Positions 15,757 through 62,186 of a stretch of 64,000 nt of DNA are shown one piece after another. Made by a program: the position numbers and the translations under genes. The notes under the pieces were generated by a model that ran no database searches, was not told the DNA's origin, and worked only from the letters and a program-made list of their open reading frames with translations. Positions within the stretch are counted from its first letter, which is position 1; every line of letters begins with the position of its first letter. The stretch is taken from the NCBI GenBank assembly GCA_937900875.1, contig CALCGD010000249.1:9977-73976 (forward strand). The letters run 5' to 3'. This DNA is from an uncultured Flavobacteriales bacterium (GTDB lineage: Bacteria > Bacteroidota > Bacteroidia > UBA10329).

Positions 15757-15876
15757 CAGATAGGTAGTATTTGGTCGATACGATTTTCTGTAAGCACACA
15801 AATATAGACGCGCGAAGCCAATGTTTCAAATAAATTAGAACGTTGTGGCTTTAAAGAAAGGATTGACACGAGGAAA

Positions 15877-37611: not shown

Positions 37612-38490
37612 ATGAGTAACCTAACTGTAATAATTCCGGCATTCAATGAAGAGCAATCTTTAAAGGTGCTTCTGCCTGAATTGCTCGATTTTGTAAAACA
37701 AAACCATCTTCAATTAATTATTGTAAACGATGGTTCTTCTGATGCAACATTAGAAGTGTTAAAAGGTTTTGAGACAAGTGCTAATTTTCAATACTTCAGT
37801 CATAAGGTTAACAGAGGATATGGTGGTGCAATAAAGACAGGAATACGCCATTCTACCACTAAATATTCTATTACTATTGATGCTGACGGGCAGCATGATT
37901 TGAATGATGTTCTTGCTTTACAAAATGCCATATTAGAAACGGATGCCGATATGATTGTTGGCAGTAGAATGGCCCAAAAAAATGCCTCGATATATAGAGG
38001 CATAGGGAAATGGCTTATAAGATGGTTTGCTAAGTTGCTTCTTCCAATTCATATCGATGATATTAATTCTGGTATGAAGATTTACAATACCGAAATGGCA
38101 AAAAGGTACATTCGAATTTGCCCAAATCATATGGCTTTTAGTGACATTATTGCTATGGTTTTTATCAGTAAAAAACACTTGGTATTAGAACAACCAATCA
38201 ATATTAAACCAAGAACAGCTGGTACTAGTACTATAAGTACGCTCACTGCTATTGAGACTGTAAAGGAAATCCTCAACATTGTCATTCTGTTTAATCCAAT
38301 GAGAGTGTTTTTTCCTATCGCTGTATTAAGCGTTGTTTTGGCGCTAGCTTGGGGCGTGCCAATTGCTTTAAATGGCCGCGGAGTAAGCACGGGTGCTATG
38401 CTTGGCTTTACCACAGGTTTGTTGTTTTTCTTCTTGGGATTGCTTGCAGAGCAGTTGTCGCAAATTCGAAGAGACAGCGTTGATGAATGA
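37612..38490 (+). CDS. polyprenyl-phosphate glycosyltransferase, GT2 family (GtrB/ArnC/DPM1-like)
   Basis: 292 aa; N-terminal GT-A domain (VIIPAFNEE, DGSSD, DADGQHD DxD motif) followed by two C-terminal TM helices. This is the architecture of GtrB/ArnC. Confidence 0.75.
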   Translation: MSNLTVIIPAFNEEQSLKVLLPELLDFVKQNHLQLIIVNDGSSDATLEVLKGFETSANFQYFSHKVNRGYGGAIKTGIRHSTTKYSITIDADGQHDLNDVLALQNAILETDADMIVGSRMAQKNASIYRGIGKWLIRWFAKLLLPIHIDDINSGMKIYNTEMAKRYIRICPNHMAFSDIIAMVFISKKHLVLEQPINIKPRTAGTSTISTLTAIETVKEILNIVILFNPMRVFFPIAVLSVVLALAWGVPIALNGRGVSTGAMLGFTTGLLFFFLGLLAEQLSQIRRDSVDE

Positions 38491-39406
38491 GCAAGATTTG
38501 CAGGTTAGAAAACGCTGGTATACACAGGTTATGGATGTGTACCGTCACAATAACATTTATATTCCTGGGTTTAATTCCTTCGCTCAATTCATGCTTAAAT
38601 CCAAAGCAGAGGCGCATTTTTCTGTTATTTCTCAAAGGAGTGTATCCGATAAGCAAATTATTGATGAATGGTTTGCTTCAAAAAATGTATTCTTTGGTTA
38701 TGGGGTGTTTAGAAGCGGCACTACGTTTTTAGCCGATTTCTTAAACAGGCACGCCTCTGGTGCAGTGGTGCAGCACGAGGCAAACGTGAACGACTATTGG
38801 TATTATGCACAAGCGATGCAATCAGACGTAGATGCCAATATTTACGTAGAAAACTACCGTTCAGCTGAGGTTTATTATCGACTAGAGGGAGTGGAACTTG
38901 GGACTTACGGAGAGATAAATCCATTTTTGAGAAGGCACGTGAAGGCACTAAAACAAGCGCTACCTAGGGCCAGGCAATTTCAGCTAGTTCGCGACCCAAG
39001 AAATGTTATTCGTTCTCTCATGTCTCGCGAACTTTTCGGGAGAAAAGACCCGATGGCTGATTTGATTTGTCCCCCAAAAGAAGACGAATATTTAGAGAAG
39101 TGGCCTAGTATGTCTCGTTTCGAAAAGTTGTGTTGGCTTTGGGCTGCAGACAATCGATTCATTCGTGAAAACACCAATCATGTTGCCAAATTTGAGTTAC
39201 TCAGAACTGACTTCAGTTATTTTGATGAAAAGATTGTATCCTTTTTGAATTTAGAGGTAAACCCTGATGCCTGGCAATCAGAAATATCTAAGGTGTTCAA
39301 TTCTACTCCCCGTTATACATTTCCGAAATACGCTGATTGGTCAATGGAGCACAAGACTCAATTTGATTCGATTTGCGCACAAGAAATGGCGTATTACGAC
39401 TATTGA
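38483..39406 (+). CDS. sulfotransferase family protein
   Basis: Start taken at MNEQ, overlapping the GT2 stop (ATGA). 5'-phosphosulfate-binding loop GVFRSGTTFLADFL and 3'-phosphate motif LVRDPRNVIRSLMS (RDP...S), as in PAPS-dependent sulfotransferases. No TM segment, so cytoplasmic. Confidence 0.55.
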   Translation: MNEQDLQVRKRWYTQVMDVYRHNNIYIPGFNSFAQFMLKSKAEAHFSVISQRSVSDKQIIDEWFASKNVFFGYGVFRSGTTFLADFLNRHASGAVVQHEANVNDYWYYAQAMQSDVDANIYVENYRSAEVYYRLEGVELGTYGEINPFLRRHVKALKQALPRARQFQLVRDPRNVIRSLMSRELFGRKDPMADLICPPKEDEYLEKWPSMSRFEKLCWLWAADNRFIRENTNHVAKFELLRTDFSYFDEKIVSFLNLEVNPDAWQSEISKVFNSTPRYTFPKYADWSMEHKTQFDSICAQEMAYYDY

Positions 39407-41373
39407 CCGTTTTTCAATTGTTGTATCGACCAATTCAGATTGCCTTTTGCGAGTGCGTAATCTGGTTTTAGAATAAGTGCTTTATTACAGGCCTTTAACG
39501 CCTCCTCATAAAGCCCCAACTTATTATAAGCACTACAAATGTTGTTGTAAGCTTCGGCATAGTTGGGCTTCAATTCTAAAGACTGATATGAAGCCTTAAT
39601 GCAGTTTTCGTACTGTTCAGCATTATAGTATTTCAAGCTTAGATTCAGATATGCCTCTGGAGTGTTTTGCCTAATCGTTTCTTGTTCCAATTGTTCTAAC
39701 TTTTTGGCCAATGTTATTGTTAAGGCATCAAGAAGTCCTTTCGCTTGTTGGTGACCTGGACTCAATTCGAGGGCTAGATTCAGGTGCTTTATTGCATCGT
39801 CTTGATGGCCATTACTTTGTAGCCAATTGGCATAGTGGTAATGGCAATCTGGATAACCAGGCCCCATTTGTACAGCTTGCTTTAGGTGTTTCTCGCCTTC
39901 GACAATTAGGGTTTGGTTTTTTGTTCTTATTCCCAGGGAGTTTTTGGCAATACCAAGATTAACGTACAAGTATGGATGCCCACCATAAGAGGTTTTTAAG
40001 GCACGTTCAAAAAAGGATATGGCCGATTCCATTCTGCCCATTCGCATTTCGGTGAGGCCGTAATTCATAAGGCCGCGACCATTATTAGGACTCTTTATTG
40101 TTACATCTTTCCACAAAGAGGCATCATTATCCCAAACCTCATTTCGCTGAAAAGTACCATGGGCGTGAGCGCCTAAAAAGCAGCTGAGGATGAGTGTAAC
40201 TGCCATTTTTGAAACCACTGATGGTTTTCCCTTTGTGATTGAATCGAAAGCTAAGTAACCGGCCCAAACTGATGCTATTACCAACCCGATGTATGGAAAA
40301 AATGTACGATGATGGTTCATTACTTCAGCAAGCGGAACAATACTCGAGCTAGGGATAAGCGCCACGTAAAACCAGAAAATTCCGAAAGCGATTGGAAGTG
40401 TTTTCCTGTTTAATGCGGCCTTAAAGGCTATGAATAAGGTGATTAATATTACCGTCAATCCAAACACCACCTTACCAGAGACTAAGTCCGTAATTAAGGC
40501 TAGGTCGGAATCTGCAGTGAGTCCTGTCGGATAGAAAAAGGTTTTGATATAAACCCAGAATATATAAGGTTGTGTATTTAGATATTCTAAGGCGTTTACA
40601 TCACTCGGTTTCCATGTTTCAGAAAACATGGATCGAGTGAAAAAATACATAGCAGCACCAAACAAAAAGAAGGGTAACGTGCCTTTTAATGAAGCCCGAA
40701 TTTTCGGAATCACTTTGGCTTTTTCGTCTTTCACGAAGAAAGAAGGCGTTTCTAACAGGAAGTCATAAAGGAATAAGATTGGTGCCAGCATCAGAGTTGT
40801 TGGCTTTGCCAAACACCCAATAATCAATGGGATTAAGGCAATTTCCTTGCTCCAGCCTTTGTTGCTTATGTAGATTAAAACAGCAGATAGAACCATCAAA
40901 GTGGAAAATCCATCTGACCGAGCGATGATGTAGTTAATGGTTTCAGCCGTGGCGGTATGAAACCCAAAAAACGAGGCGCCTATTACAGCTAGTAAGTAAT
41001 GTTTTTGGCCATCAGTTTTCTCAAAAATGCGGAGCAAAAGCAAGTACAATAACCCAAGCAGCAGAAGAAATTCTAGGTATATGTGCCAGTGAAAAACTTT
41101 AGGATTGAGCGATCCGGCTATCCAATAATCTATGGCATTTAAACTTGTAATTACTGGTCGGTATGCCTGATTTGTAGGCAAGCTGCTGGTAGTTTCAGAG
41201 TCCTGAAAAAATTGTGGGAGATTGTCAATGTTCTTTATAAAGCCATTGTTGACTATTGTGTGGCTGTCGTCAAAATGAAAACCATTATCGAAATGATTCC
41301 AATACACTGCTGTAAGCGCAGCGATAAGAAAAATGGCTAGGAAAAACGCAAAAGATTTGGAATTCATGTTCAT
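39400..41373 (-). CDS. TMTC-like GT-C glycosyltransferase fused to C-terminal TPR repeats
   Basis: 657 aa; ~440-aa polytopic membrane domain with a first-loop FHFDDSHTIVNNGFI motif, followed by ~200 aa of TPR repeats. The motif compares to FVHDDxxAIVNNP of eukaryotic TMTC O-mannosyltransferases, and to the DD/DE motif of GT-C enzymes such as ArnT and PMT. Confidence 0.55.
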   Translation of the reverse strand: MNMNSKSFAFFLAIFLIAALTAVYWNHFDNGFHFDDSHTIVNNGFIKNIDNLPQFFQDSETTSSLPTNQAYRPVITSLNAIDYWIAGSLNPKVFHWHIYLEFLLLLGLLYLLLLRIFEKTDGQKHYLLAVIGASFFGFHTATAETINYIIARSDGFSTLMVLSAVLIYISNKGWSKEIALIPLIIGCLAKPTTLMLAPILFLYDFLLETPSFFVKDEKAKVIPKIRASLKGTLPFFLFGAAMYFFTRSMFSETWKPSDVNALEYLNTQPYIFWVYIKTFFYPTGLTADSDLALITDLVSGKVVFGLTVILITLFIAFKAALNRKTLPIAFGIFWFYVALIPSSSIVPLAEVMNHHRTFFPYIGLVIASVWAGYLAFDSITKGKPSVVSKMAVTLILSCFLGAHAHGTFQRNEVWDNDASLWKDVTIKSPNNGRGLMNYGLTEMRMGRMESAISFFERALKTSYGGHPYLYVNLGIAKNSLGIRTKNQTLIVEGEKHLKQAVQMGPGYPDCHYHYANWLQSNGHQDDAIKHLNLALELSPGHQQAKGLLDALTITLAKKLEQLEQETIRQNTPEAYLNLSLKYYNAEQYENCIKASYQSLELKPNYAEAYNNICSAYNKLGLYEEALKACNKALILKPDYALAKGNLNWSIQQLKNGQ

Positions 41374-42392
41374 CTATTAGCCTTCGACACTTTGTCAATT
41401 AACCCGCTGATTGATAGAGAGTCAAAATGTTTGAGGTTCGAATATAGGGCAGGCAAACCAATTGTTGCTGACCAAAAGACTGAAATAAGCCGAGTAATAA
41501 CTCCAATTAGGAGACCATCTTCAAGTTGAAATCCAGCAGCAGAAAACACAACTCCAATCATTACTTCCTGAATACCCAAGTTGCCTGGTAATAGTCGGAT
41601 TAAGAGCACAACTCTTAAGACCAACACTACTAAAAAAACGGATGGAAACTCACTTTCAACTCCTAAAACTTCAGCAGTTTTCCAAAACCAGATTGCTTGT
41701 ATTGTGACTGAGACGCTAGTTGAAATGAGCAGGCCAAAAAAGAGTTTAGTGTTTCTAAACTGATCTGCTAATTGTAACTGAACATTGATGAAAAAGTTGA
41801 TGATTTTGTTCAATGCACCATCGCCATCTCTTGGTTTGGATGGCAAAACATGAAGCGTAGCCCAAAGACCAGCTAATGCAATTCCCATTAGTATTATGGT
41901 AAATCGAAGTTCGAAAGATTGAACTGGAATTAAATACGCTAAAGCCAGCCCAACAATCACGGTTAAAAAAATGCTATTGAGGAAAACCATGAGACCCAGC
42001 GAAAACCCTTTGCTTAGATCGAGGTTATACTTGTGCTTCGAATAGAAAACCTGAAATAGCATGCCACCCTTCATAGGCATGAGGTATAAAAACAAGTGCA
42101 TCATTAAGGGCAGCGTAACGATTTCGCTTTTATCGATCTTGAGTTGATAATGAAGCCAAAACCCCATCCACATTATGACGCCAAACGAGATGTGAAACAA
42201 CAATCCCAACCCTAGCAGTAGAAAGATTTGAACCGTAGAGGTTGAACTGAATAAATGCGATAAATCGACTTCTCGAAACGTGAATGCCACCACACCAAAA
42301 AAGAGTGCGGCCGCCAAACTGAAAACCCCTATAGAACCTAACTTGGACAAATGAAAATCACTGAGTGTGCAAAATAGGTAGAAGAGCGCCAT
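41370..42392 (-). CDS. flippase-like domain membrane protein (UPF0104 / LPG-synthase TM-region family)
   Basis: 340 aa; about eight TM helices; LPGNLGIQEVMIGVVFSAAG resembles the PGGLGxxE motif of this family; 4-nt overlap with the downstream GT-C gene. Confidence 0.5.
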   Translation of the reverse strand: MALFYLFCTLSDFHLSKLGSIGVFSLAAALFFGVVAFTFREVDLSHLFSSTSTVQIFLLLGLGLLFHISFGVIMWMGFWLHYQLKIDKSEIVTLPLMMHLFLYLMPMKGGMLFQVFYSKHKYNLDLSKGFSLGLMVFLNSIFLTVIVGLALAYLIPVQSFELRFTIILMGIALAGLWATLHVLPSKPRDGDGALNKIINFFINVQLQLADQFRNTKLFFGLLISTSVSVTIQAIWFWKTAEVLGVESEFPSVFLVVLVLRVVLLIRLLPGNLGIQEVMIGVVFSAAGFQLEDGLLIGVITRLISVFWSATIGLPALYSNLKHFDSLSISGLIDKVSKANR

Positions 42393-42401
42393 TTTACTGC
42401 C

Positions 42402-43268
42402 TTGAGCACATTACATTTGCAGCCAATGAGTAAAGAAATTCCAGCAGAAGAATTGCCAGAAGAAGGCGACATGTCTTTTTTGGAGCATTTGGAAGTGTTG
42501 CGTTGGCATTTGGTCCGTTCCGTAGCGTCCATTTTTGTTTTCGCAACTGCGGCATTCATAGCTAAGTCATTCATTTTTGATACCGTTTTGCTAGGGCCTA
42601 AAAGCGGTGATTTTTGGACTTACAGAATGCTTTGCAAGCTCTCTGATAAATTTGGCCTCAGCGATTTGTTGTGTATTACCGACATTCCATTCGAACTTAT
42701 TAATATCAGCATGGCTGGTCAGTTTACCACGCATATTGTGGTTTCAATAATTGCTGGCTTCGTGGTTGCTTTTCCATACATCATATTTGAAGTTTGGAGG
42801 TTTATCAAGCCTGGTTTACATAAAACCGAGAGAAAATATGCTAACGGGATGGTGTTTTATACATCGTTTCTATTTATCACGGGCGTGCTGTTTGGTTACT
42901 ACATAATAGCGCCATTGTCGGTGAATTTTTTAGGCGGATATCACGTAAGCGATTTAGTAACCAATCAAATTGATTTGAACAGTTATTTCAGTACGGTTTC
43001 CACACTTGTTTTGGCAACTGGACTGGTGTTTGAGTTGCCTATGTTCATGTATTTTCTTACAAAAATTGGAGTGGTTACGCCTCAGTCGTTAAGGCAATAT
43101 AGAAGGCACGCGGTAGTTGGTATTCTAGTTATGGCAGCCATCATTACTCCGCCTGATGTTTCAAGCCAAGTATTGGTCTTCTTCCCGTTAATGTTGCTTT
43201 ATGAAGTAAGTATTGGGGTTTCGGCATTGGTTTTGCGCAATCAGGAAAAGGCAAATGCCGATATTTGA
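42402..43268 (+). CDS. tatC: twin-arginine translocase subunit TatC
   Basis: 288 aa; six TM helices; conserved FLEHLEVLRWHL N-terminal helix. Confidence 0.85.
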   Translation: MSTLHLQPMSKEIPAEELPEEGDMSFLEHLEVLRWHLVRSVASIFVFATAAFIAKSFIFDTVLLGPKSGDFWTYRMLCKLSDKFGLSDLLCITDIPFELINISMAGQFTTHIVVSIIAGFVVAFPYIIFEVWRFIKPGLHKTERKYANGMVFYTSFLFITGVLFGYYIIAPLSVNFLGGYHVSDLVTNQIDLNSYFSTVSTLVLATGLVFELPMFMYFLTKIGVVTPQSLRQYRRHAVVGILVMAAIITPPDVSSQVLVFFPLMLLYEVSIGVSALVLRNQEKANADI

Positions 43269-46623: not shown

Positions 46624-48201
46624 CTATTCTCTACCGTAAATCCTAGCGAAGTGAATTCCTTTCTTGCTTTCCCAAATCTTGGCGAAGGCACTGTCCGATT
46701 CAACCGCTGCCAATGCACCATTATCGTTATTAAAACTCAAGGTTAGTACGTAGTCTGTCGCAGGAGTAATCGCATTATCGATACATGATGGAAGTTTATC
46801 TGTATTTCGGTAGCCCTGTACTGGGTTTTGCAAAGCTTGTTGAACGATAAAAGTTCCGGAAATACAACTATCAAGGCTCACATTATTCTCTAAATAGACA
46901 ATGCTCTCTTGAATCAATTGTATCTGGTTTACATATTTCATGTTGTCAGAGTTGTTCATTCTGGCATCCGCCTTATTGGCCAAATGGTAGAACATTAACC
47001 CTAATGAAAGCATACCCACATTGAATAGGAAAGCAGATTTTTTAGTGGCAAGGTTAAAAATGGAGACAGCGCAAATTATTACCAACGGTATGAGGAGTAA
47101 AAGGTATCTGCCAATCACAAAATGAGCTGAGGTGAACAGAATTAACGCCAAGCAGACCAAGCCAACTAGTGGGAAAAACAGATGGTTTTTCGAATCGTGT
47201 TTCGAGAAAAAAGTTGCCAGCCAAATTGTGGCTACGATTATTACAGCTGGAAAAACCCAGTAATAATACCAGTTGGGCAACCAAGAACCTGTTCCTTCCA
47301 TGGTTAAGAAAGTGATCCCTATAAATCCGAATAATACCCTAAGAATTCTTGGTCCGCTTTGCCAAGCTAGTGAAGCAGAAGCTAGCGCCACACCTAGTAA
47401 AATTGGTCGTTGTTGTTCTCCGAAAACTGTGCTGAAAACCAATTCTCTTTTGTGTCGCCAAACTTCAGGATCAGTATCAAACATGCTCATGTGTTCAGGA
47501 AACATAAACCAACCAAACTGATTGTATTGCACGAGATAGTAAACAGATGTAAGAACAACCGGAACTCCAACTGACAAAAATTCGAAAACTCGTTTCTTTG
47601 AAAAATCTCGGTCTTTAGAGAACTGAAAAAGTTCCAAAAAGCCAATCATTGCCAGAATTAGGATTCCAGTTTCTTTAGTTAGCAACATAGCTGTTGCCGA
47701 CAGGATAAATAGCCAATACCGTTTTTGTAGATAGAACAAAATGGTGAGCGCAACAAAGAGGCTTAATTGAACTTCTGGTAACAGAAAACCAGCTTGTTGT
47801 ATGAAAATTGGCTGCAAAGCAAAAATTGCAGCAGACCAAAAACCTACTTGTTTTGAAGCAACCTGACTCCCTAATTTGTAAACAACCCAAATGAGTAAAA
47901 CGGATAGAAAAACGGAGAATGCATGGACTGCTGAAAAACTAGTCCCAAACATTGTCATCCAGCAAACAGCCAAAAAGTGAAATAAGATTGGATGCCCTCT
48001 CGAAAGTTCGGGGTCTATAGAATTTGGCGAAAGGCTTGGGCCGTTTTCGAACATATCGAATACCGCTGGGGCGTATACCCACGCTTCGTCCCAGAAATAA
48101 GGAAGGTTGAGAAACGGCAGATTAATGAGAACGAATAAGAAGCAGATAAGTGCAACCGCAACATCCCAAATACAAGCGTATTTCCTAATGGTTGAAAACA
48201 A
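46624..48201 (-). CDS. GT-C glycosyltransferase, ArnT/PMT-like (GT83/GT39 family)
   Basis: 525 aa polytopic membrane protein; first-loop LPYFWDEAWVYAPAVFDM matches the DEARYA...EM signature of ArnT-like transferases. Confidence 0.55.
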   Translation of the reverse strand: MFSTIRKYACIWDVAVALICFLFVLINLPFLNLPYFWDEAWVYAPAVFDMFENGPSLSPNSIDPELSRGHPILFHFLAVCWMTMFGTSFSAVHAFSVFLSVLLIWVVYKLGSQVASKQVGFWSAAIFALQPIFIQQAGFLLPEVQLSLFVALTILFYLQKRYWLFILSATAMLLTKETGILILAMIGFLELFQFSKDRDFSKKRVFEFLSVGVPVVLTSVYYLVQYNQFGWFMFPEHMSMFDTDPEVWRHKRELVFSTVFGEQQRPILLGVALASASLAWQSGPRILRVLFGFIGITFLTMEGTGSWLPNWYYYWVFPAVIIVATIWLATFFSKHDSKNHLFFPLVGLVCLALILFTSAHFVIGRYLLLLIPLVIICAVSIFNLATKKSAFLFNVGMLSLGLMFYHLANKADARMNNSDNMKYVNQIQLIQESIVYLENNVSLDSCISGTFIVQQALQNPVQGYRNTDKLPSCIDNAITPATDYVLTLSFNNDNGALAAVESDSAFAKIWESKKGIHFARIYGRE

Positions 48202-51572: not shown

Positions 51573-52697
51573 TTGCTTTCAAACATGACCAGACTACTTT
51601 TCGTCTTCCTCATACTTTCTGCCTCTTTTATGCTTGGAAATCAGGCATTTGCACAAACACCTAAGTACTCTAATGAATTTTTGGCAATTGGCGTTGGAGC
51701 TCGCGGAATGGGTATGGCCAACAGCATGGTGGCTAGTGTAAATGATGTGACAGGAGGGTATTGGAATCCTGCTGCATTGCCGTTGGCTCAAAGAAAGTGG
51801 CAGGTTTCGCTCATGCACTCAGAGTATTTTGCTGGAATCGCTAAGTACGATTACGCAGCAATTTCAGCACCTATTCTTGATGAACATACTCAAGCGGCTT
51901 TCACTTTTATTCGATTTGGGGTTGATGATATTCCAAATACCACTCAGCTTTTAGATGATGAGGGCAACATAGACTACGATAGAGTTACGGCCTTTACAGC
52001 TGCAGATTATGCTTTTCAGTTTAGTGTTGGTCGAAAAAGCCCCAAAATACCGGGATTGAGATATGGCGGAACTGTTAAAGTCGTGTATCGTCATGTAGGA
52101 AAGTTTGCCAGTTCTTGGGGGTTTGGCTTGGATGGTGGTGTTCAGTATGACCTAGGTAAATGGAAATTCGGTTTAATGGCAAGAGACGTAACTTCTACAT
52201 TCAATGCCTGGAATTTCACTCTAGATGATGAAACCAAAGAAGTTTGGCTTCAAACGGGAAATGAGATTCCTAAAAACTCATTGGAGGTTACGCTTCCAAA
52301 AATGATTTTAGGAGCTGGTCGCAGATTCAATATCTACAAAAAGTTTGGTGTTTATACCGAGTTTAACTTCGATTTTACGTTTGATGGAAAGCGTTCTGTT
52401 CTCATAAAAGGCGACCCAATAAGTATTGAGCCGCATTGGGGAATGGAATTATTTTACTCCGATTTTGTATATGTCCGTTTTGGTGTAACCAACATTCAGG
52501 ACTATACAAATGATGATGGCGATAAAATTTGGACTTGGCAGCCAAATGTTGGTGTAGGAGTCCGAATTAAAGATTTCTATATCGATTATGCTTTAACAGA
52601 TGTAGGAAACCAATCCGTTGCGTTGTTTAGTAATGTATTCTCCCTGCGGGTAGACATACATAAAGACATGTTTAAAAAGAAAGAGAAGATTGAATGA
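51573..52697 (+). CDS. T9SS-associated outer-membrane beta-barrel of the PorV/PorQ (FadL-like) family
   Basis: 374 aa; signal peptide; N-terminal EFLAIGVGARGMGMANSMVA...GGYWNPAAL resembles the FLxIxxxARxxGMG...NPA signature of PorV/PorQ shuttle proteins. The stop overlaps the next start (ATGA at 52694..52697). Confidence 0.5.
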   Translation: MLSNMTRLLFVFLILSASFMLGNQAFAQTPKYSNEFLAIGVGARGMGMANSMVASVNDVTGGYWNPAALPLAQRKWQVSLMHSEYFAGIAKYDYAAISAPILDEHTQAAFTFIRFGVDDIPNTTQLLDDEGNIDYDRVTAFTAADYAFQFSVGRKSPKIPGLRYGGTVKVVYRHVGKFASSWGFGLDGGVQYDLGKWKFGLMARDVTSTFNAWNFTLDDETKEVWLQTGNEIPKNSLEVTLPKMILGAGRRFNIYKKFGVYTEFNFDFTFDGKRSVLIKGDPISIEPHWGMELFYSDFVYVRFGVTNIQDYTNDDGDKIWTWQPNVGVGVRIKDFYIDYALTDVGNQSVALFSNVFSLRVDIHKDMFKKKEKIE

Positions 52698-55600
52698 GGA
52701 AACTTTTACTGATAGCTTTCTTGCTTCAGTCTGTTTTTGCCTTTTCGCAGCCGTATGGTAACGAATGGGTGAATGCCTCTCAACCTCATTTCAAATTTAA
52801 CATACACCAAGAGGGAGTTTATCGCATTAGCTATCAGGTTTTATCCGATGCTTTGGCCGCGCAAGGCCTAAACCTCAATTCCATTGATCCTCGAAATATT
52901 CAAATTTTTGCCCGTGGCGAAGAACAATATCTGTATGTAGGAGGTGAGGCTGATGGGAATTTTGATACCAACGATTTTATTGAATTCTATGCTCGCAAAA
53001 ATGATGGGGTATTAGATACGGAGGTCTATTTCGATAATCCGCTCAATAACGCCAACCCGTACCATAGTCTAATAAACGACACAATTCGGTACTTCCTTAC
53101 TTGGAACAACTCTATTGCCAATGCGAGAATGACGTTGGAATCGGATGTCAATTTTACTGGATACACCCAGTCTTCGTACATATTAAGAGATGAAATAGAC
53201 GAGTTGCACGACACCTATTTTACTGGTCAAAACTACGTGGTAACAGGCAGTCCAAGCCCGATTTATTCTGGTGGAGAAGGTTTTTACGGTTACTATTTTG
53301 ATGCAGGCTGGACTGATAGTTTTTGGAATTTAGGAACTGTGTTTAGAGATGCTTCTGGCCCAGATGCAGAGGTGGAAATTGGAATAGTTGGCGCCTCTTT
53401 CGATGATAAAAACCTTCATATTCAAGGTCCATCTATCAGTTTTGATACGGTAATGGAAAAATACAACGGCTATCGGTTCAATTTCAATGTGCCAACGGCC
53501 TCTCTCGGAGTAAATGCGTCCAACTTCACATTCTCTATGAACAACCCTGTTACTAACGGTTCGTATCGTGCAATTGTTGGTTTTGTAAGAGTACGATACC
53601 CACAAACTCCAAATGTTGGAAACGGACAAACAGCAAAGTTTATCGTTGACGATAACCCAAATTATCCAAGTCAAGCCAAGAGTTATGTTCAGTTGGCTGG
53701 GTATACGCAAGGAACTCCACGACTTTACGACTTAACCAATCATAAACGGATTTCAGTTGGTGGTTCGCCAGGTAGTTACCGCTTTCTAATACCAGACAAC
53801 GGCAGTTTAAAACACTGCTATTTAACCAACGAATCAGGAATTGCATCAAACGCTATTTCTGTTCTTACACCTGCTGGATCAAATGGCTCTGTTTTCTTCA
53901 CGGATTTCGATGCTTTGGACGCAAATACAGACTATTTCGCCATCGGAAATGCTTCTATGTTTGCGGAGGTTCAGCAATACGCGGCTTATCGAAATGTATC
54001 GGGTTATAATGCGATTGCTATAGATGCTGATGAACTCTATAACCAGTTTGGGTGGGGAATAAATAAGCACCCGCTGGCTATTCGAAAATTTGCCAATTGG
54101 GCGTTAGGAAACCTCACCGCCCCTTCGCATATCTTCCTCATAGGCAAATCGGTTTCGTCTCTTTCTGCTCGAAATAATCCCGCTCTTTTTGCAGAGATTA
54201 TGGTGCCAAGTTTTGGTCATCCGCCTAGCGATAATATGCTCACATCATATCTCGGAACGGGAACTTATTTAGAAGAAACAGGAATTCCTGTTGGGAGATT
54301 GGCCGCAAAAAGTGGTGATGACGTGACCGAGTATCTAGATAAGATAATGGAGTACGAAGCGTTGCCGAACAATCTTTGGATGAAACGAATCCTGCACTTT
54401 TCGGGTGGTGGTACGCAAAACGAAGTTGCCCAAATTCGTTCGTTTATGGATTCGTACAAAACCATAATTGAAGACACGCTTTACGGTGCCAGTGTTCAAA
54501 CTTTTCAGAAAACGAGTTCAGAGCCTTTTCAAATTACACAGGTCGATTCTATTACAGATTTGGTTGAGACCGGTGTTCAGTTGATTAATTTCTTTGGACA
54601 TGGGTCAGCCGTTGGTTTCGATGTCAGTATAGATCATCCTTCTCTGTTCAATAATCAAAACGGTAAGTATCCGTTTATGATGGCGAATTCATGTTTTGCA
54701 GGAGATATCCACCAACCCTCAAGTGTTCCAACTTCAATTTCTGAAAACTGGGTACTCGAGCCACAAGGTGGAGCGCTTGGATTTTTAGCTACAATTGGTC
54801 CAGGTAGCAGGTTTTACCTCAATAGTTATTGCACTAATTTCTACCACAGTGTTAGTCATTTAGAGTACTATAACACCATTGGCTGGCAGATTAAGAAAGC
54901 CATTAGAGAAAATGCGCAGCCGTTTAATGACATTACCAAGTTGCACAATCTGGAGTATACGCTCCATGGCGATCCAGCATTAAACATCACCAACAGGGAG
55001 AAACCAGATTTAATGGTTAATCAGCCTGCTATTTGGTTTGAACCGGAAGAGATTACCACCGAGATGGCTGATTTTGAAATGTTTGTGAAGATTACCAATT
55101 TGGGTGCTGCTTTCACAGATTCTTTTGTAGTAGAGATAACTCGACAACTTCCAACCGGACAAATTGATACCACTATCAGTATTATTCATCCGCCTGTTTA
55201 TTACCTAGATACTATGAGTGTATTTATCCCAATCGATTTGATTGATGGATTGGGTATTAATACCATTTGCATTTCGCTCGATAATACGCAAATCATAGAT
55301 GAACTTTCGGAAGTGAACAATGATGTTTGTATTGACGTGAACGTCTTATCTCCAGATATTGTGCCTATTTGGCCATATAAGTTCGCTGTAATTCCAGACC
55401 AAGGTCCAACCTTGAAATGTTCTACAGGTAGCCCTTTTGCACCAGAAAAAACGTATAGGATTGAACTGGATACAACCGATTTATTCAATAGTCCGTTAAT
55501 GCAGTTTACCACCATCACCCAGGGTGGCGGTGTTGTTAATTGGACACCAGGCTTACTTCAAAACATGCCAGATAGTACAGTCTATTTTTGGCGAGCAAGC

Positions 55601-57736
55601 GTTGATTCTGCCACCTACGGTTTTTACAAATGGAGAGAAACTTCCTTTCAGTACATCGTAGATAAGTATGGTTGGGGACAAGCACACTACTTCCAATACA
55701 AGGAAGACGATCACATTAATATGGTTTACAACCGTCCTGAATTAGACTGGGATTTTGTGCAAACCATGAAGCAGTTTAAGATTAACAATTTTGGTAATCC
55801 TACTACGCTGGCTGAGGCGGAAGCCATCAATTTCTTTATAGATAATGGTAGAGAGGAATACCTCGGTTGCACGGGAGGAAACGTGTTTACACCGCAGCTG
55901 CTTACCGCGGTAATGGATGGGTGTACCCTCAAGCCTTGGGAAACTCCCGGAAACGACCCAGAAACGGGTGAGTTTATTCCTGGAGGAGGAGCGCAAGGGC
56001 AGTTAGAACCTTGTAGAACCCGTCCTGAAAAATGGTACCAATGGGCTGCTACCAGCGGTACATCAATGAATAACATGGTTACGTTTTTAGGAAACACAGT
56101 TCCTGATAGCAGCTATATAGGAATAGCCACTTGGCTTAACGTAAACCTTGCTGGGCTACCCGCCAACGTGCTTCAGGTTTTTCACGATTTAGGTGCTACA
56201 GCCATCGATACACTCTCTGGTGTTCCGTATGCGTTTTTCGCGCAAAAAGGAAATCCAGCTTCGGCCATAGAAGTTTTTGGAACCGACATCAACGACTATA
56301 TAAGCCTTACGGCTGATATGACTGGATGTTGGAACAACGGAACAATCACCTCTAAGTACATTGGACCTACATCGCAGTGGAATTCGTTGCATGTTCGTTC
56401 TCACCCCAAGGAAAACCCAACATTAGATAGCATTGGCATCAATGTAATTGGGGTACGCCCGAGTGGTGTAGAAGAGGTGGTTATGACTGGAATTAATGGT
56501 AATAGCACCGATATTCTTGATTTATATAACTCTATTGATGCTGCAGAATTTCCTCGATTAAAACTCAATGCCTACTGTAGTGATGATAGTTCTGCTAGCA
56601 CTCCGCCACAAATGGATAGGTGGCAGGTGTTGTTTGATGGAGTGCCGGAAGCTGCACTAAATCCGCATATAGGCTACCATTTTGAAAGTGATACTATTAA
56701 TGATGGTGAGCTTCTGAAATTCACCGTGGCAATTGAAAATATCAGCGATTTCGATATGGATAGTTTGCTGGTGCATTACTGGATACAGGATGGGCAAGGC
56801 AATCGAAATTACATTCCGTATCCGCGACAGGCGCCTTTGTTGGCTGGAGATATTTTACTCGATACCGTCATAACTGATCCGCTCGATTTCTTAGGAGGAA
56901 ATGTGTTTTGGGTGGAAGTTAACCCGAGAAGACCGGATCAAACTTCGGGCTACGATCAGCTAGAGCAATATCACTTCAATAATCTAGCAAACGTTCAGTT
57001 TTCTGTTTCTGGAGATGATGTAAACCCAATAATGGATGTGACCTTTGATGGTATTCACATTCTTGATGGTGATATCGTTTCTGCCAAACCATTTATTGTG
57101 ATTGAGTTGGATGATGAGAGTCAATTCAGATTGCTAAACGACACCGCAGATTTCCAAGTGTTCTTAAAACAACCGGAATCAGAAGTACTACAAAGGGTTT
57201 GGTTTGAGGGCTTCACTAACATGCAGTTTTATCCAGGTGAAGAACCTACAAACAAGGCACGAATTGAATGGCCAGCTGAGTTTGCTGCCGATGGTGTCTA
57301 CGAACTTTGGGTACAGGGCCACGACAAATCGAACAATGCCTCAGGAGATCAATACTACCGAATAAGTTTCGAGGTAATTAACGAAGCCACCATCAGTAAT
57401 GTGCTCAATTATCCAAACCCGTTCTCAACGTCCACCCATTTCGTATTTACAATTACCGGTTCAGAGCAGCCAGATTATTTCAAAATACAGGTAATGACCA
57501 TCACCGGCAAGGTGGTCAGAGAAATTACCATGGACGAACTGGGCCACATGAATATTGGCCGAAATGTGACCCAATATGCGTGGGATGGAAAAGACACCTA
57601 CGGAGACCAGCTCGCCAATGGCGTTTATCTTTACAGAATGGTCGCCAAATTAGATGGCGCATACATCGAGCATCGCGATAGCGGAGCCGACAGATGGATT
57701 GAAAGTGGTTTTGGCAAGATGATGTTGATTCGCTAA
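52694..57736 (+). CDS. gingipain-like C25 cysteine peptidase with a T9SS type-A C-terminal domain (PorU-like or paralogue)
   Basis: 1680 aa; signal peptide; C25 catalytic dyad context INFFGHGSAVGFD ... 27 aa ... MANSCFAGD; C-terminal type-A sorting domain with YPNPF and GVYLY motifs. Confidence 0.6.
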   Translation: MRKLLLIAFLLQSVFAFSQPYGNEWVNASQPHFKFNIHQEGVYRISYQVLSDALAAQGLNLNSIDPRNIQIFARGEEQYLYVGGEADGNFDTNDFIEFYARKNDGVLDTEVYFDNPLNNANPYHSLINDTIRYFLTWNNSIANARMTLESDVNFTGYTQSSYILRDEIDELHDTYFTGQNYVVTGSPSPIYSGGEGFYGYYFDAGWTDSFWNLGTVFRDASGPDAEVEIGIVGASFDDKNLHIQGPSISFDTVMEKYNGYRFNFNVPTASLGVNASNFTFSMNNPVTNGSYRAIVGFVRVRYPQTPNVGNGQTAKFIVDDNPNYPSQAKSYVQLAGYTQGTPRLYDLTNHKRISVGGSPGSYRFLIPDNGSLKHCYLTNESGIASNAISVLTPAGSNGSVFFTDFDALDANTDYFAIGNASMFAEVQQYAAYRNVSGYNAIAIDADELYNQFGWGINKHPLAIRKFANWALGNLTAPSHIFLIGKSVSSLSARNNPALFAEIMVPSFGHPPSDNMLTSYLGTGTYLEETGIPVGRLAAKSGDDVTEYLDKIMEYEALPNNLWMKRILHFSGGGTQNEVAQIRSFMDSYKTIIEDTLYGASVQTFQKTSSEPFQITQVDSITDLVETGVQLINFFGHGSAVGFDVSIDHPSLFNNQNGKYPFMMANSCFAGDIHQPSSVPTSISENWVLEPQGGALGFLATIGPGSRFYLNSYCTNFYHSVSHLEYYNTIGWQIKKAIRENAQPFNDITKLHNLEYTLHGDPALNITNREKPDLMVNQPAIWFEPEEITTEMADFEMFVKITNLGAAFTDSFVVEITRQLPTGQIDTTISIIHPPVYYLDTMSVFIPIDLIDGLGINTICISLDNTQIIDELSEVNNDVCIDVNVLSPDIVPIWPYKFAVIPDQGPTLKCSTGSPFAPEKTYRIELDTTDLFNSPLMQFTTITQGGGVVNWTPGLLQNMPDSTVYFWRASVDSATYGFYKWRETSFQYIVDKYGWGQAHYFQYKEDDHINMVYNRPELDWDFVQTMKQFKINNFGNPTTLAEAEAINFFIDNGREEYLGCTGGNVFTPQLLTAVMDGCTLKPWETPGNDPETGEFIPGGGAQGQLEPCRTRPEKWYQWAATSGTSMNNMVTFLGNTVPDSSYIGIATWLNVNLAGLPANVLQVFHDLGATAIDTLSGVPYAFFAQKGNPASAIEVFGTDINDYISLTADMTGCWNNGTITSKYIGPTSQWNSLHVRSHPKENPTLDSIGINVIGVRPSGVEEVVMTGINGNSTDILDLYNSIDAAEFPRLKLNAYCSDDSSASTPPQMDRWQVLFDGVPEAALNPHIGYHFESDTINDGELLKFTVAIENISDFDMDSLLVHYWIQDGQGNRNYIPYPRQAPLLAGDILLDTVITDPLDFLGGNVFWVEVNPRRPDQTSGYDQLEQYHFNNLANVQFSVSGDDVNPIMDVTFDGIHILDGDIVSAKPFIVIELDDESQFRLLNDTADFQVFLKQPESEVLQRVWFEGFTNMQFYPGEEPTNKARIEWPAEFAADGVYELWVQGHDKSNNASGDQYYRISFEVINEATISNVLNYPNPFSTSTHFVFTITGSEQPDYFKIQVMTITGKVVREITMDELGHMNIGRNVTQYAWDGKDTYGDQLANGVYLYRMVAKLDGAYIEHRDSGADRWIESGFGKMMLIR

Positions 57737-62006: not shown

Positions 62007-62186
62007 CAAATTATTTGTTTCAACCCAAATAGATTGAACCGAACGTAAAGCTATTATTTTACACCTGAAAGTTTTAGTAAAAAAGCATTGCCATTTAAAT
62101 TTCAACTTTGCAGGAATCTTACATTTCGTGGAATTAATACGATTTTACAACGCCTACGTTGTGTCGTTTATCGATAAATATGCCGC

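What the first reader, a model, noticed from the sequence alone, without database searches (positions are those of the whole stretch)
37612..42392. Candidate undescribed periplasmic glycosylation/sulfation module: GtrB-like GT2 + sulfotransferase, convergent with a TMTC-like GT-C/TPR enzyme + flippase-like protein
**Seen in sequence.**
- A GT2 with two C-terminal TM helices, the architecture of polyprenyl-phosphate sugar synthases such as GtrB, ArnC and DPM1.
- It is translationally coupled (ATGA overlap at 38483..38490) to a cytoplasmic protein carrying both PAPS-binding sulfotransferase motifs.
- On the opposite strand, overlapping by 4 nt, sit a UPF0104 flippase-like membrane protein and a large GT-C-fold membrane enzyme carrying ~200 aa of C-terminal TPR repeats.

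**Established knowledge.**
- Three-component Gtr/Arn-type systems build a lipid-linked monosaccharide in the cytoplasm, flip it, and transfer it to a periplasmic acceptor with a GT-C enzyme.
- TPR-fused GT-C enzymes of the TMTC type are protein O-mannosyltransferases in eukaryotes.

**Inference.** This locus could encode a system that transfers a possibly sulfated sugar from a polyprenyl-phosphate carrier onto periplasmic or surface proteins recognised by the TPR domain. I do not recognise it as the known Bacteroidota general O-glycosylation locus or as an LPS/Arn locus. A second ArnT-like GT-C lies 5 kb away (46624..48201) and could share the same lipid-linked donor.
Basis: partly seen in the sequence, partly recalled or inferred. 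Interest (0 to 1): 0.78.

Follow-up and report, generated by a model that had tools for sequence, protein, structure and literature searches.

The report
Four-gene sulfated-sugar envelope glycosylation module
Four adjacent genes in an uncultured Flavobacteriales genome look like a membrane pathway that loads a sugar onto a lipid carrier, probably sulfates it, flips it across the inner membrane and attaches it to an envelope target; this sulfotransferase-containing arrangement recurs in other bacteria and I found no description of it.

Summary
All four ORFs sit at the stated coordinates.

- **37612-38490 (+):** a membrane-anchored GT2. It aligns over its full length to ArnC and has two C-terminal hydrophobic helices.
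- **38483-39406 (+):** a soluble Sulfotransfer_3 protein with both PAPS motifs invariant. It overlaps the GT2 by 8 nt (ATGAATGA).
- **41370-42392 (-):** a UPF0104/MprF-flippase-like protein, joined to the GT-C gene by an ATGA overlap.

The linkage is not local synteny. The same genes are clustered in unrelated flanks, including a Gammaproteobacteria MAG where the block has atypical GC and lies beside a transposase fragment.

This sulfotransferase subfamily is small: 75 clusters among 5.8 billion proteins. It recurs beside membrane-anchored GT2 genes together with different GT-C partners. These are the TPR enzyme, PMT_2 and YfhO, plus a DUF6077 membrane protein of unassigned fold. UPF0104 and APS kinase genes are often present too.

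Best reading: a Gtr/Arn-type three-component glycosylation system with a cytoplasmic sulfation step added. Sulfation of the lipid-linked sugar, the identity of the sugar and the acceptor are all inferred. GT105/TMTC membership is not established. Verdict: a new variant of a known kind.

The parts
37612..38490 (+). GT2 glycosyltransferase (292 aa), the predicted polyprenyl-phosphate sugar synthase. GT-A domain at residues 1-~200.
   Evidence: PF00535 E 2.4e-27. Full-length match to ArnC structures at E 8.5e-14, plus DPMS and sll0501. Best NCBIfam hits are PpgS, AglJ and ArnC, all far below their equivalog cut-offs.
38269..38448 (+). Two C-terminal hydrophobic helices of the GT2 (residues 220-238 and 261-279), forming the membrane anchor.
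   Evidence: Hydropathy scan. The same region aligns to the transmembrane part of ArnC.
38483..38490 (+). 8-nt start/stop overlap ATGAATGA between the GT2 and the sulfotransferase.
   Evidence: Sequence read. The same 8-nt overlap is seen in the gene calls of L001 and L004.
38483..39406 (+). Cytoplasmic PAPS-type sulfotransferase (307 aa).
   Evidence: PF13469 at 36.9 bits against a cut-off of 27. The family profile hits TPST1/2 structures at E 6e-9. No hydrophobic helix. APS kinase lies beside homologs in 9 loci.
38711..38731 (+). 5'-phosphosulfate-binding loop (R77-S78-G79-T-T-F-L).
   Evidence: R77, S78 and G79 are invariant in 18 homologs.
38774..38779 (+). Invariant H98-E99, a candidate catalytic base.
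   Evidence: Invariant in alignment A3. The catalytic role is inferred.
38990..39016 (+). 3'-phosphate-binding motif (R170 ... S178).
   Evidence: R170 and S178 are invariant. This segment aligns to the TPST 3'-PB region.
40099..41373 (-). GT-C-fold membrane glycosyltransferase domain (residues 1-425, about 11 membrane helices).
41266..41271 (-). Invariant D35-D36 in the first extracytoplasmic loop ('GFHFDDSHTIVNN'), the candidate catalytic or metal-binding site.
   Evidence: Invariant in 29 and in 19 homologs. TMTCs carry a conserved DD motif in the same loop (PMC7801869).
39400..40098 (-). C-terminal TPR domain (residues ~426-657), predicted to be periplasmic.
   Evidence: TPR_1, TPR_2, TPR_8, TPR_19 and related hits. 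Helical repeats in the model. An odd number of membrane helices places it outside the cytoplasm (inference).
39400..39406 (.). 7-nt overlap of the convergent 3' ends of the sulfotransferase and GT-C genes.
   Evidence: Sequence read. The convergent pair is conserved in L089 with a 4-nt overlap, and in other loci.
41370..42392 (-). UPF0104 / MprF-flippase-like (PplT) membrane protein (340 aa), the predicted flippase for the lipid-linked sugar.
   Evidence: PF03706 E 2e-20 over 3-300 of 302 positions. At least 7 hydrophobic segments. ATGA overlap with the GT-C start.

Best explanation
This is a four-component version of the Gtr/Arn-type extracytoplasmic glycosylation system.

1. The membrane-anchored GT2 transfers one sugar from a nucleotide sugar to undecaprenyl phosphate on the cytoplasmic face. 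The fold and architecture are shown; the activity and the sugar are inferred.
2. The soluble sulfotransferase, translationally coupled to the GT2, uses PAPS to sulfate that lipid-linked sugar, or possibly its nucleotide precursor. The PAPS-binding apparatus is shown; the substrate is inferred from gene context.
3. The UPF0104/MprF-flippase-like protein moves the anionic lipid-linked sugar to the periplasmic face (inferred).
4. The GT-C enzyme transfers the sugar to a periplasmic or envelope acceptor chosen with the help of its TPR domain. The GT-C fold, DD motif and TPR are shown. The acceptor is unknown. A folded envelope protein is my favoured guess, by analogy with TMTCs.

In relatives the cytoplasmic tailoring position is variable. 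It can hold a sulfotransferase, a hexapeptide acyltransferase, or a GMC-oxidoreductase plus SDR pair. That variability fits a surface structure that differs between strains.
For: **Domain and fold assignments:**

**Operon-like coupling:** 8-nt and 4-nt start/stop overlaps.

**Linkage beyond local synteny.**
- L008: 51% identical GT-C, 56% GC, flanked by GroEL and a sigma factor. It carries UPF0104, sulfotransferase, TPR-GT-C and GT2.
- L011: a Gammaproteobacteria MAG carrying all four genes. The block is 44% GC within flanks of 48-52% GC and lies beside an ISL3 transposase fragment.
- L089: the sulfotransferase converges on the TPR-GT-C among fatty-acid oxidation genes.

**GT2 association.** A GT2 lies within 7 kb of the TPR-GT-C in 47 of 84 loci. 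It is often a GacI-like GT2 with a DUF2304 partner.

**Sulfotransferase subfamily.**
- It comprises only 75 clusters in 5.8e9 proteins.
- It recurs next to membrane-anchored GT2 genes with different GT-C partners: TPR-GT-C; PMT_2 with UPF0104 and APS kinase; YfhO and PMT_2 with GtrA. A further context pairs it with UPF0104 and a DUF6077 membrane protein of unassigned fold.
- APS kinase next to homologs supports PAPS use.

**Co-evolution.** TPR-GT-Cs linked to the sulfotransferase cluster in a neighbour-joining tree. One clade of 16 holds 15 linked members (Fisher p 1e-12).

**Precedents from the literature.**
- H. volcanii Agl7 contributes to sulfation of a dolichol-phosphate-bound hexose (PMC3892788).
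- AglD is a GT2 fused to UPF0104 (PMC5898192).
Against: - There is no biochemical evidence for any step.
- No PAPS-synthesis gene lies in the 64-kb window.
- More distant sulfotransferase relatives (30-39% identity) sit in ordinary Wzx-dependent polysaccharide clusters. The family is therefore not restricted to lipid-linked monosaccharides.
- The closest solved relatives are tyrosylprotein sulfotransferases, so the acceptor class is open.
- UPF0104 also pairs with the TPR-GT-C without a sulfotransferase (L172).
- No residue signature separates sulfotransferase-linked GT-Cs from the others.
- Many TPR-GT-C genes stand alone, for example L006.
- In Flavobacteriales much of the adjacency lies inside a conserved TatC-to-RecQ frame, which inflates the co-occurrence counts.
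Confidence: 0.5

Rival explanations
1. The same lipid-linked pathway operates, but the acceptor is not a protein. The GT-C would decorate LPS core or lipid A, O-antigen, a capsule or EPS, or peptidoglycan. The TPR domain would dock onto an export or assembly machine rather than select protein substrates.
For: - All bacterial three-component systems I compared with (Gtr, Arn, Gac, CsbB/GtcA/YfhO) modify glycans or lipids (papers listed).
- In the PMT_2 version of the sulfotransferase cluster, a Kdo/WaaP-family kinase is adjacent.
- An LptB-like ABC ATPase and a DUF5686 protein lie nearby in 17-18 of 84 loci.
- Gene content varies within a fixed TatC-to-RecQ slot, in the manner of serotype-converting loci.
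Against: - The architecture of an 11-helix GT-C with a DD motif and C-terminal TPR is that of the TMTC protein O-mannosyltransferases.
- Weak DUF1736 hits fall at the matching loop.
- Tandem paralogs resemble the TMTC1-4 diversification.
- None of these points is decisive.
Confidence: 0.35
2. The GT2, UPF0104 protein and GT-C form an ordinary three-component system that transfers an unsulfated sugar. The sulfotransferase has a separate cytoplasmic substrate, such as a tyrosine of a peptide or protein before export (RaxST/TPST-like), or a lipid.
For: - The best solved matches are tyrosylprotein sulfotransferases.
- The TPR-GT-C works without a sulfotransferase in most loci.
- UPF0104 with TPR-GT-C exists without a sulfotransferase.
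Against: - The sulfotransferase is translationally coupled to the GT2.
- It sits directly after a membrane-anchored GT2 in at least four different cluster types with different GT-C partners.
- The TPST match covers only the PAPS-binding half of the protein.
- GT-Cs linked to the sulfotransferase form their own clade.
Confidence: 0.2
3. The adjacency is inherited synteny without a shared function.
For: TatC, RecQ, LptB-like and DUF5686 genes are also frequent neighbours in Bacteroidota.
Against: - The four genes travel together into unrelated flanks and into another phylum.
- They are joined by overlapping start and stop codons.
- The combination of a GT2 with a GT-C is a known functional unit.
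Confidence: 0.03

Closest known systems
Three-component extracytoplasmic glycosylation systems (GtrA/GtrB/Gtr(type); ArnC/ArnEF/ArnT; GacI-GacJ/GacK/GacL; CsbB/GtcA/YfhO)
   Same: - A membrane-anchored GT2 related to ArnC, DPMS and GtrB.
- A dedicated membrane protein predicted to flip the lipid-linked sugar.
- A GT-C-fold transferase with its active site outside the cytoplasm.
- The genes are clustered.
- Relatives of the TPR-GT-C use a GacI-like GT2 with a DUF2304 (GacJ-like) partner.
   Different: - A PAPS-type sulfotransferase is inserted after, and coupled to, the GT2.
- The flippase candidate is UPF0104/MprF-like rather than a GtrA, ArnE/F or Wzx type.
- The GT-C carries a C-terminal TPR domain.
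Eukaryotic TMTC1-4 protein O-mannosyltransferases (CAZy GT105)
   Same: - An N-terminal GT-C domain with about 11 membrane helices, and a C-terminal TPR on the non-cytoplasmic side.
- A DD motif in the first loop.
- Weak TMTC_DUF1736 signal at the TM7-TM8 loop in some relatives.
- JGI names two family members 'protein O-mannosyl-transferase'.
   Different: - The window protein has no DUF1736 or PMT_2 Pfam hit, and there is no significant sequence match to any solved GT-C.
- It is bacterial, so the carrier would be undecaprenyl phosphate rather than dolichol phosphate.
- The donor sugar is unknown and possibly sulfated.
- The acceptors are unknown.
Haloferax volcanii low-salt N-glycan pathway (Agl5/Agl6/Agl7) and AglD
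   Same: - Agl7 contributes to sulfation of a hexose while it is bound to dolichol phosphate, before translocation (PMC3892788).
- AglD is a GT2 fused to a UPF0104 domain (PMC5898192).
- Both are precedents for steps 2 and 3 of the proposed pathway.
   Different: - The system is archaeal.
- The sulfated hexose is extended to a tetrasaccharide and transferred to Asn.
- I did not test homology between Agl7 and this sulfotransferase.
Mycobacterial PpgS/Rv3779 (polyprenyl-phospho-GalNAc synthase plus GT-C)
   Same: PpgS is the best NCBIfam hit of the GT2 (E 7e-23). It is also a lipid-linked monosaccharide synthase paired with a GT-C.
   Different: - The score of 81 bits is far below the equivalog cut-off of 370.
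- There is no sulfotransferase and no TPR, and the acceptor is arabinogalactan (the system's composition and acceptor are from my own knowledge).

Membership tests
Three-component polyprenyl-phosphate glycosylation system (Gtr/Arn/Gac type) | Membrane-anchored GT-A/GT2 polyprenyl-phosphate sugar synthase | tested here: met
   PF00535 hit, full-length match to ArnC (E 8.5e-14), and two C-terminal hydrophobic helices.
Three-component polyprenyl-phosphate glycosylation system (Gtr/Arn/Gac type) | GT-C-fold transferase acting outside the cytoplasm | tested here: met
Three-component polyprenyl-phosphate glycosylation system (Gtr/Arn/Gac type) | Small GtrA-, ArnE/F- or Wzx-type flippase | tested here: not met
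   No GtrA, EamA or Wzx gene lies within about 10 kb. A UPF0104 (PF03706) protein occupies that position instead.
Three-component polyprenyl-phosphate glycosylation system (Gtr/Arn/Gac type) | Formation and transfer of a polyprenyl-phosphate monosaccharide | not testable with these tools
   Requires enzymology or lipid analysis.
TMTC / CAZy GT105 | About 11 transmembrane helices in an N-terminal GT-C domain, followed by a C-terminal TPR domain on the non-cytoplasmic side | tested here: met
   AlphaFold helices, TPR Pfam hits, and the TMTC topology from PMC7801869.
TMTC / CAZy GT105 | Conserved DD motif in the first loop | tested here: met
   D35 and D36 are invariant.
TMTC / CAZy GT105 | TMTC_DUF1736 (PF08409) loop recognised at Pfam's gathering score | tested here: not met
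   The window protein gives no hit. Five of 19 relatives give sub-threshold hits (best E 5e-4). In L049 the hit falls at residues 258-305 with 15.4 bits against a cut-off of 27.
TMTC / CAZy GT105 | Significant sequence homology to TMTC or PMT-clan proteins | tested here: inconclusive
   The family profile gives 0 hits against PDB sequences. hhalign against the window's PMT_2 protein gives probability 0.7%. No TMTC sequences were available for a direct profile comparison.
TMTC / CAZy GT105 | Dol-P-Man-dependent O-mannosylation of proteins | not testable with these tools
   Requires biochemistry.
PAPS-dependent sulfotransferase (Sulfotransfer_3) | Family profile match above the curated cut-off | tested here: met
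   36.9 bits against 27. The family profile hits TPST1/2 at E 6e-9.
PAPS-dependent sulfotransferase (Sulfotransfer_3) | 5'-PSB and 3'-PB PAPS-binding motifs conserved | tested here: met
   R77, S78, G79, R170 and S178 are invariant in 18 homologs.
PAPS-dependent sulfotransferase (Sulfotransfer_3) | PAPS supply | tested here: inconclusive
   APS kinase is adjacent to homologs in 9 loci. None lies in this window, and the rest of the genome was not seen.
MprF-type flippase domain (UPF0104 / PplT) | PF03706 match over the full domain in a polytopic membrane protein | tested here: met
   E 2e-20 over 3-300 of 302 positions. At least 7 hydrophobic segments.
MprF-type flippase domain (UPF0104 / PplT) | Lipid translocation activity | not testable with these tools
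   Requires a biochemical assay.
Bacteroidota general O-glycosylation (lfg-type) locus | Und-PP-oligosaccharide assembly genes: an initiating phosphoglycosyltransferase, several cytoplasmic glycosyltransferases and a Wzx flippase | tested here: not met
   None of these lie among the neighbours. The flanks are RecQ, CtaA, GldD, TatC, DUF5686, an LptB-like ATPase, PssA and PurS.
Arn lipid A aminoarabinose pathway | ArnC equivalog score, plus ArnA/B/D/E/F/T genes | tested here: not met
   59.7 bits against the equivalog cut-off of 529. No Arn partner genes are in the neighbourhood.

The most novel reading that the evidence does not exclude
Bacteria have a previously unrecognised 'sulfo-glycosylation' route. 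A monosaccharide is sulfated while bound to undecaprenyl phosphate and flipped by an MprF-like flippase. A bacterial TMTC-like GT-C then attaches it directly to Ser/Thr of folded envelope proteins. Under this reading the sulfotransferase is a portable module that can plug into several GT-C systems: the TPR type, PMT_2 and YfhO, and possibly the DUF6077 type if that protein proves to be a GT-C.
Probability: 0.27. Interest if true: 0.85.

Novelty: new variant of a known kind. Interest (0 to 1): 0.62.

Why it matters
**If the sulfotransferase acts on the lipid-linked sugar.** This would be the first bacterial case I am aware of, in the searchable literature, of sulfation at the polyprenyl-phosphate stage feeding a GT-C enzyme. 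It would explain how a sulfated sugar can reach the periplasm even though PAPS is cytoplasmic.

**The TPR-GT-C family.** It has at least 585 species-level hits and no characterised member that I could find. It is the bacterial counterpart, in architecture, of the human TMTC O-mannosyltransferases, so its acceptors would be of general interest.

**Experimental handles.** The recurring set of GT2, tailoring enzyme, UPF0104 protein and GT-C offers:
- a test of the proposed flippase role of UPF0104/PplT proteins;
- a route into strain-variable surface structures in environmental Bacteroidota.

Tried and rejected
- **afdb50 library.** It was not available, so I could not compare directly with AlphaFold TMTC models.
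- **Profile of the N-terminal domain against PDB sequences.** No hits even at E 10.
- **hhalign of that profile against the window's own PMT_2 protein.** Not significant.
- **Pfam at permissive thresholds.** Only sub-threshold TMTC_DUF1736 hits appeared.
- **Residues distinguishing sulfotransferase-linked TPR-GT-Cs.** I was looking, for example, for extra basic residues. Only one uninformative column (L106) emerged.
- **Sigma-70 promoter and terminator scan.** No more sites than in shuffled sequence. It is in any case unsuited to Bacteroidota promoters.
- **Exclusive UPF0104-sulfotransferase pairing.** The TPR-GT-C-centred set suggested it: this UPF0104 subfamily was found in 6 loci, all sulfotransferase-bearing, and in none of the other 78. 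Lookups centred on UPF0104 refuted it (L172 and L174).
- **Literature.** Searches found no description of a sulfotransferase inside a three-component GT-C system. A cyanobacterial TPR glycosyltransferase, 'Ogt', turned out to be GT41 and is not related.
- **tRNA and Rfam scans of the window.** Both empty.


Full report
**1. Observation**

The window comes from an uncultured Flavobacteriales-type bacterium. Identical genes occur on aquatic metagenome contigs, and the nearest named relatives are Flavobacteriales MAGs.

*GT2, 37612-38490 (+).*
- It matches PF00535 at E 2.4e-27.
- It aligns end to end with solved ArnC chains (residues 3-288 to 9-301, E 8.5e-14). It also matches Pyrococcus dolichol-phosphate mannose synthase and the sll0501 glycosyltransferase.
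- It has two C-terminal hydrophobic helices.
- Its best NCBIfam hits are polyprenyl-phosphate sugar synthases (PpgS, AglJ, ArnC). All fall far below the equivalog cut-offs, so the sugar cannot be named.

*Sulfotransferase, 38483-39406 (+).*
- It passes the Sulfotransfer_3 gathering score and has no hydrophobic helix.
- It carries a 5'-phosphosulfate loop (R77-S78-G79-T-T) and a 3'-phosphate motif (R170...S178). Both are invariant across 18 homologs, as is an H98-E99 pair.
- The family profile finds tyrosylprotein sulfotransferases in the PDB at E 6e-9, across the PAPS-binding half only.
- The overlap with the GT2 is 8 nt (ATGAATGA), not a simple ATGA.

*GT-C/TPR protein, 39400-41373 (-).*
- Pfam sees only TPR at about residues 430-650.
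- The full-length AlphaFold model is confident (pLDDT 88.5, pTM 0.81).
- The model has about 11 membrane helices, which puts the TPR domain on the periplasmic side.
- D35-D36 in the first loop ('GFHFDDSHTIVNN') is invariant in the family.

*UPF0104 protein, 41370-42392 (-).* It matches the MprF flippase domain family PF03706 over the whole model. It is joined to the GT-C gene by an ATGA overlap.

**2. Is the linkage meaningful?**

*Survey centred on the TPR-GT-C.* A scan of one genome per species found at least 585 relatives. Most are Bacteroidota. Others are MAGs assigned to Gammaproteobacteria, Verrucomicrobiia, Nitrospirota, Acidobacteriota and Thermodesulfovibrionales.

In 84 non-redundant loci, a GT2 lies within 7 kb in 47. 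The GT2 is one of two kinds:
- the 292-aa ortholog;
- a roughly 240-aa GT2 with a DUF2304 partner. This is the GacI/GacJ arrangement (bioRxiv 10.1101/180810, found).

TatC, RecQ, an LptB-like ATPase and DUF5686 are also common neighbours. Part of the adjacency in Flavobacteriales is therefore plain synteny.

The four genes nevertheless appear together in unrelated surroundings:
- **L008** (56% GC; flanked by GroEL and a sigma factor) has UPF0104, a split GMC-type oxidoreductase, an SDR, the sulfotransferase, the TPR-GT-C and the GT2.
- **L011** (Gammaproteobacteria MAG) has all four genes at 46-73% identity. The block is 44% GC in flanks of 48-52% GC, next to an ISL3 transposase fragment.
- **L089** has the convergent sulfotransferase/TPR-GT-C pair among fatty-acid oxidation genes, with no GT2 within 8 kb.

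*Survey centred on the sulfotransferase.* This subfamily has only 75 clusters among 5.8 billion proteins. A metagenome scan gave 80 more loci, which fall into four contexts:

| Group | Identity to window ST | Typical neighbours | Example loci |
|---|---|---|---|
| A | 46% or more | GT2 then ST, converging on the TPR-GT-C, often with UPF0104. Two 37-38% loci, L119 and L120, share the arrangement with a GacI-like GT2 plus DUF2304. | L092-L095, L099, L101 |
| B | 41-45% | UDP-GlcNAc 2-epimerase, ST, PMT_2 GT-C, membrane-anchored GT2, UPF0104, APS kinase | L098, L100, L123, L157, L151 |
| B (variant) | 41-45% | WaaP-like kinase, methyltransferase, GT2, ST, APS kinase | L105, L106, L112 |
| C | 34-36% | GT2, GT4, methyltransferase, ST, UPF0104, DUF6077 membrane protein | L143, L144, L154, L171 |
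| D | 30-39% | Ordinary Wzx/GT4 polysaccharide clusters | L128, L135, L149, L160 |

- A further locus, L090, reads sulfatase, YfhO, GT2, ST, GT2 with GT2_TM_C, PMT_2, GtrA.
- The GT2s beside the sulfotransferase all have C-terminal hydrophobic helices.
- APS kinase next to the sulfotransferase in 9 loci argues that it really uses PAPS.
- In a neighbour-joining tree of 107 TPR-GT-Cs, one clade of 16 contains 15 members linked to the sulfotransferase (Fisher p 1e-12). The other six linked members sit on nearby branches.

*Survey centred on UPF0104.* This subfamily is also small, with 48 clusters, many on the same contigs as the sulfotransferase and GT-C hits. The pairing is not exclusive:
- **L172** has the same TatC-to-RecQ frame, but reads PMT_2, GT2, hexapeptide acyltransferase, UPF0104, TPR-GT-C, with no sulfotransferase.
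- **L174** pairs UPF0104 with a DUF2142 membrane protein, GT2s and GtrA.

UPF0104 is therefore a general partner of GT2 and GT-C genes, as in the archaeal AglD fusion (PMC5898192). The cytoplasmic tailoring enzyme is the variable element.

**3. Mechanism**

Shown here:
- the folds and motifs of all four proteins;
- their start/stop coupling;
- their conserved and mobile linkage.

Inferred:
- The GT2 makes an undecaprenyl-phosphate monosaccharide.
- The sulfotransferase sulfates it on the cytoplasmic face. PAPS is cytoplasmic and the GT-C acts outside, so any sulfate delivered by this route must be added before flipping.
- UPF0104 flips the product.
- The GT-C transfers it to an acceptor.

A precedent for sulfating a polyprenyl-phosphate-bound hexose exists in Haloferax volcanii, where Agl7 has this role. 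Its authors suggested that sulfation may be needed for translocation (PMC3892788).

The acceptor is open. The TMTC-like architecture favours proteins. The WaaP-like kinase in group B and the serotype-like variability favour LPS or another glycan.

I put 0.5 on the sulfated-donor pathway as a whole. The unsulfated core of GT2, flippase and GT-C deserves clearly more than that. A protein acceptor deserves clearly less.

**4. Comparison with known systems**

The system works like the Gtr/Arn/Gac/CsbB-GtcA-YfhO three-component systems. It differs from them in three ways:
- the sulfotransferase;
- the UPF0104 flippase candidate in place of GtrA, ArnEF or Wzx;
- the TPR-fused GT-C.

It resembles TMTC1-4 in architecture, topology and the DD motif (PMC7801869). 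Membership in that family is not established:
- The window protein has no DUF1736 or PMT_2 hit.
- Relatives give only sub-threshold DUF1736 hits, although these fall at the expected TM7-TM8 loop.
- The profile search against PDB sequences was empty.
- I could not run a direct profile or AlphaFold-database comparison with TMTCs.

It is not an lfg-type O-glycosylation locus and not an Arn locus.

**5. Novelty and verdict**

Six literature searches found no description of a sulfotransferase embedded in a three-component GT-C system, and no characterised bacterial member of this TPR-GT-C family. The library is incomplete, so this is not proof of absence.

I rate the locus a new variant of a known kind. 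Interest is 0.62.

Noticed in passing
window 52694-57736 (+), with 51573-52697 (+): A 1680-aa Peptidase_C25 protein (PorU/gingipain-like) follows a 374-aa ORF that has no Pfam hit, with a 4-nt overlap between them. Type IX secretion cargo-type tails lie at 60300-62105 (Por_Secre_tail) and 13852-15801 (CHU_C).
   Followed up: no
window 42402-43268 (+) TatC; 84 related loci: TatC diverges from the UPF0104 gene with at most about 33 nt between them. TatC lies within 7 kb of the TPR-GT-C in 23 of 84 loci and RecQ in 21 of 84. This may be lineage synteny, or it may hint that Tat-exported folded proteins are acceptors.
   Followed up: partly
L004 8070-11974; L094 10918-14801; L116; L041; L060: Two TPR-GT-C paralogs in tandem or flanking the sulfotransferase; the L004 pair is 54% and 69% identical to the window protein. 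The pattern is reminiscent of the TMTC1-4 diversification.
   Followed up: partly
L019, L023, L032, L068 and about 11 other loci; L008 6339-8865: Relatives lacking the sulfotransferase often carry a fixed gene set. It comprises a GacI-like GT2, DUF2304, a GMC-type FAD oxidoreductase of about 538 aa, an NAD-epimerase-like SDR of 287 aa, adh_short, a methyltransferase and a 136-aa protein of unknown family. This looks like a DprE1/DprE2-style oxidation and reduction of a lipid-linked sugar. L008 has both this oxidoreductase/SDR pair and the sulfotransferase.
   Followed up: partly
L011 8955-13705 (CAWDDX010000005.1, Gammaproteobacteria MAG): The whole four-gene block is 44% GC within flanks of 48-52% GC. 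It lies next to an ISL3 transposase fragment and a collagen-repeat protein. This suggests horizontal transfer of the module.
   Followed up: yes
L090 3319-4935; L101 10942-12360: A sulfatase (PF00884 with the SGSH_C domain) lies within a few genes of the sulfotransferase in two otherwise different clusters.
   Followed up: no
L172 4682-10932: In the same TatC-to-RecQ slot as the window, a related genome has PMT_2, a 367-aa GT2, a hexapeptide acyltransferase, UPF0104 and the TPR-GT-C, with no sulfotransferase. The slot appears to be a variable cassette.
   Followed up: partly
L143 and L144 (three sulfotransferase paralogs); L154; L171: These clusters hold up to three sulfotransferase paralogs together with UPF0104, two membrane-anchored GT2s, a GT4, a methyltransferase and a 681-aa DUF6077 protein with about 13 hydrophobic segments. 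Whether DUF6077 has a GT-C fold was not tested.
   Followed up: partly
window 46624-48201 (-): The second GT-C is a 525-aa PMT_2 protein with a weak hit to the AZOBR_p60025 family. It keeps its place next to PurS and PssA in L001 and L004, and it has a 45%-identical counterpart in L012. It therefore looks like part of the conserved backbone rather than the variable module.
   Followed up: partly
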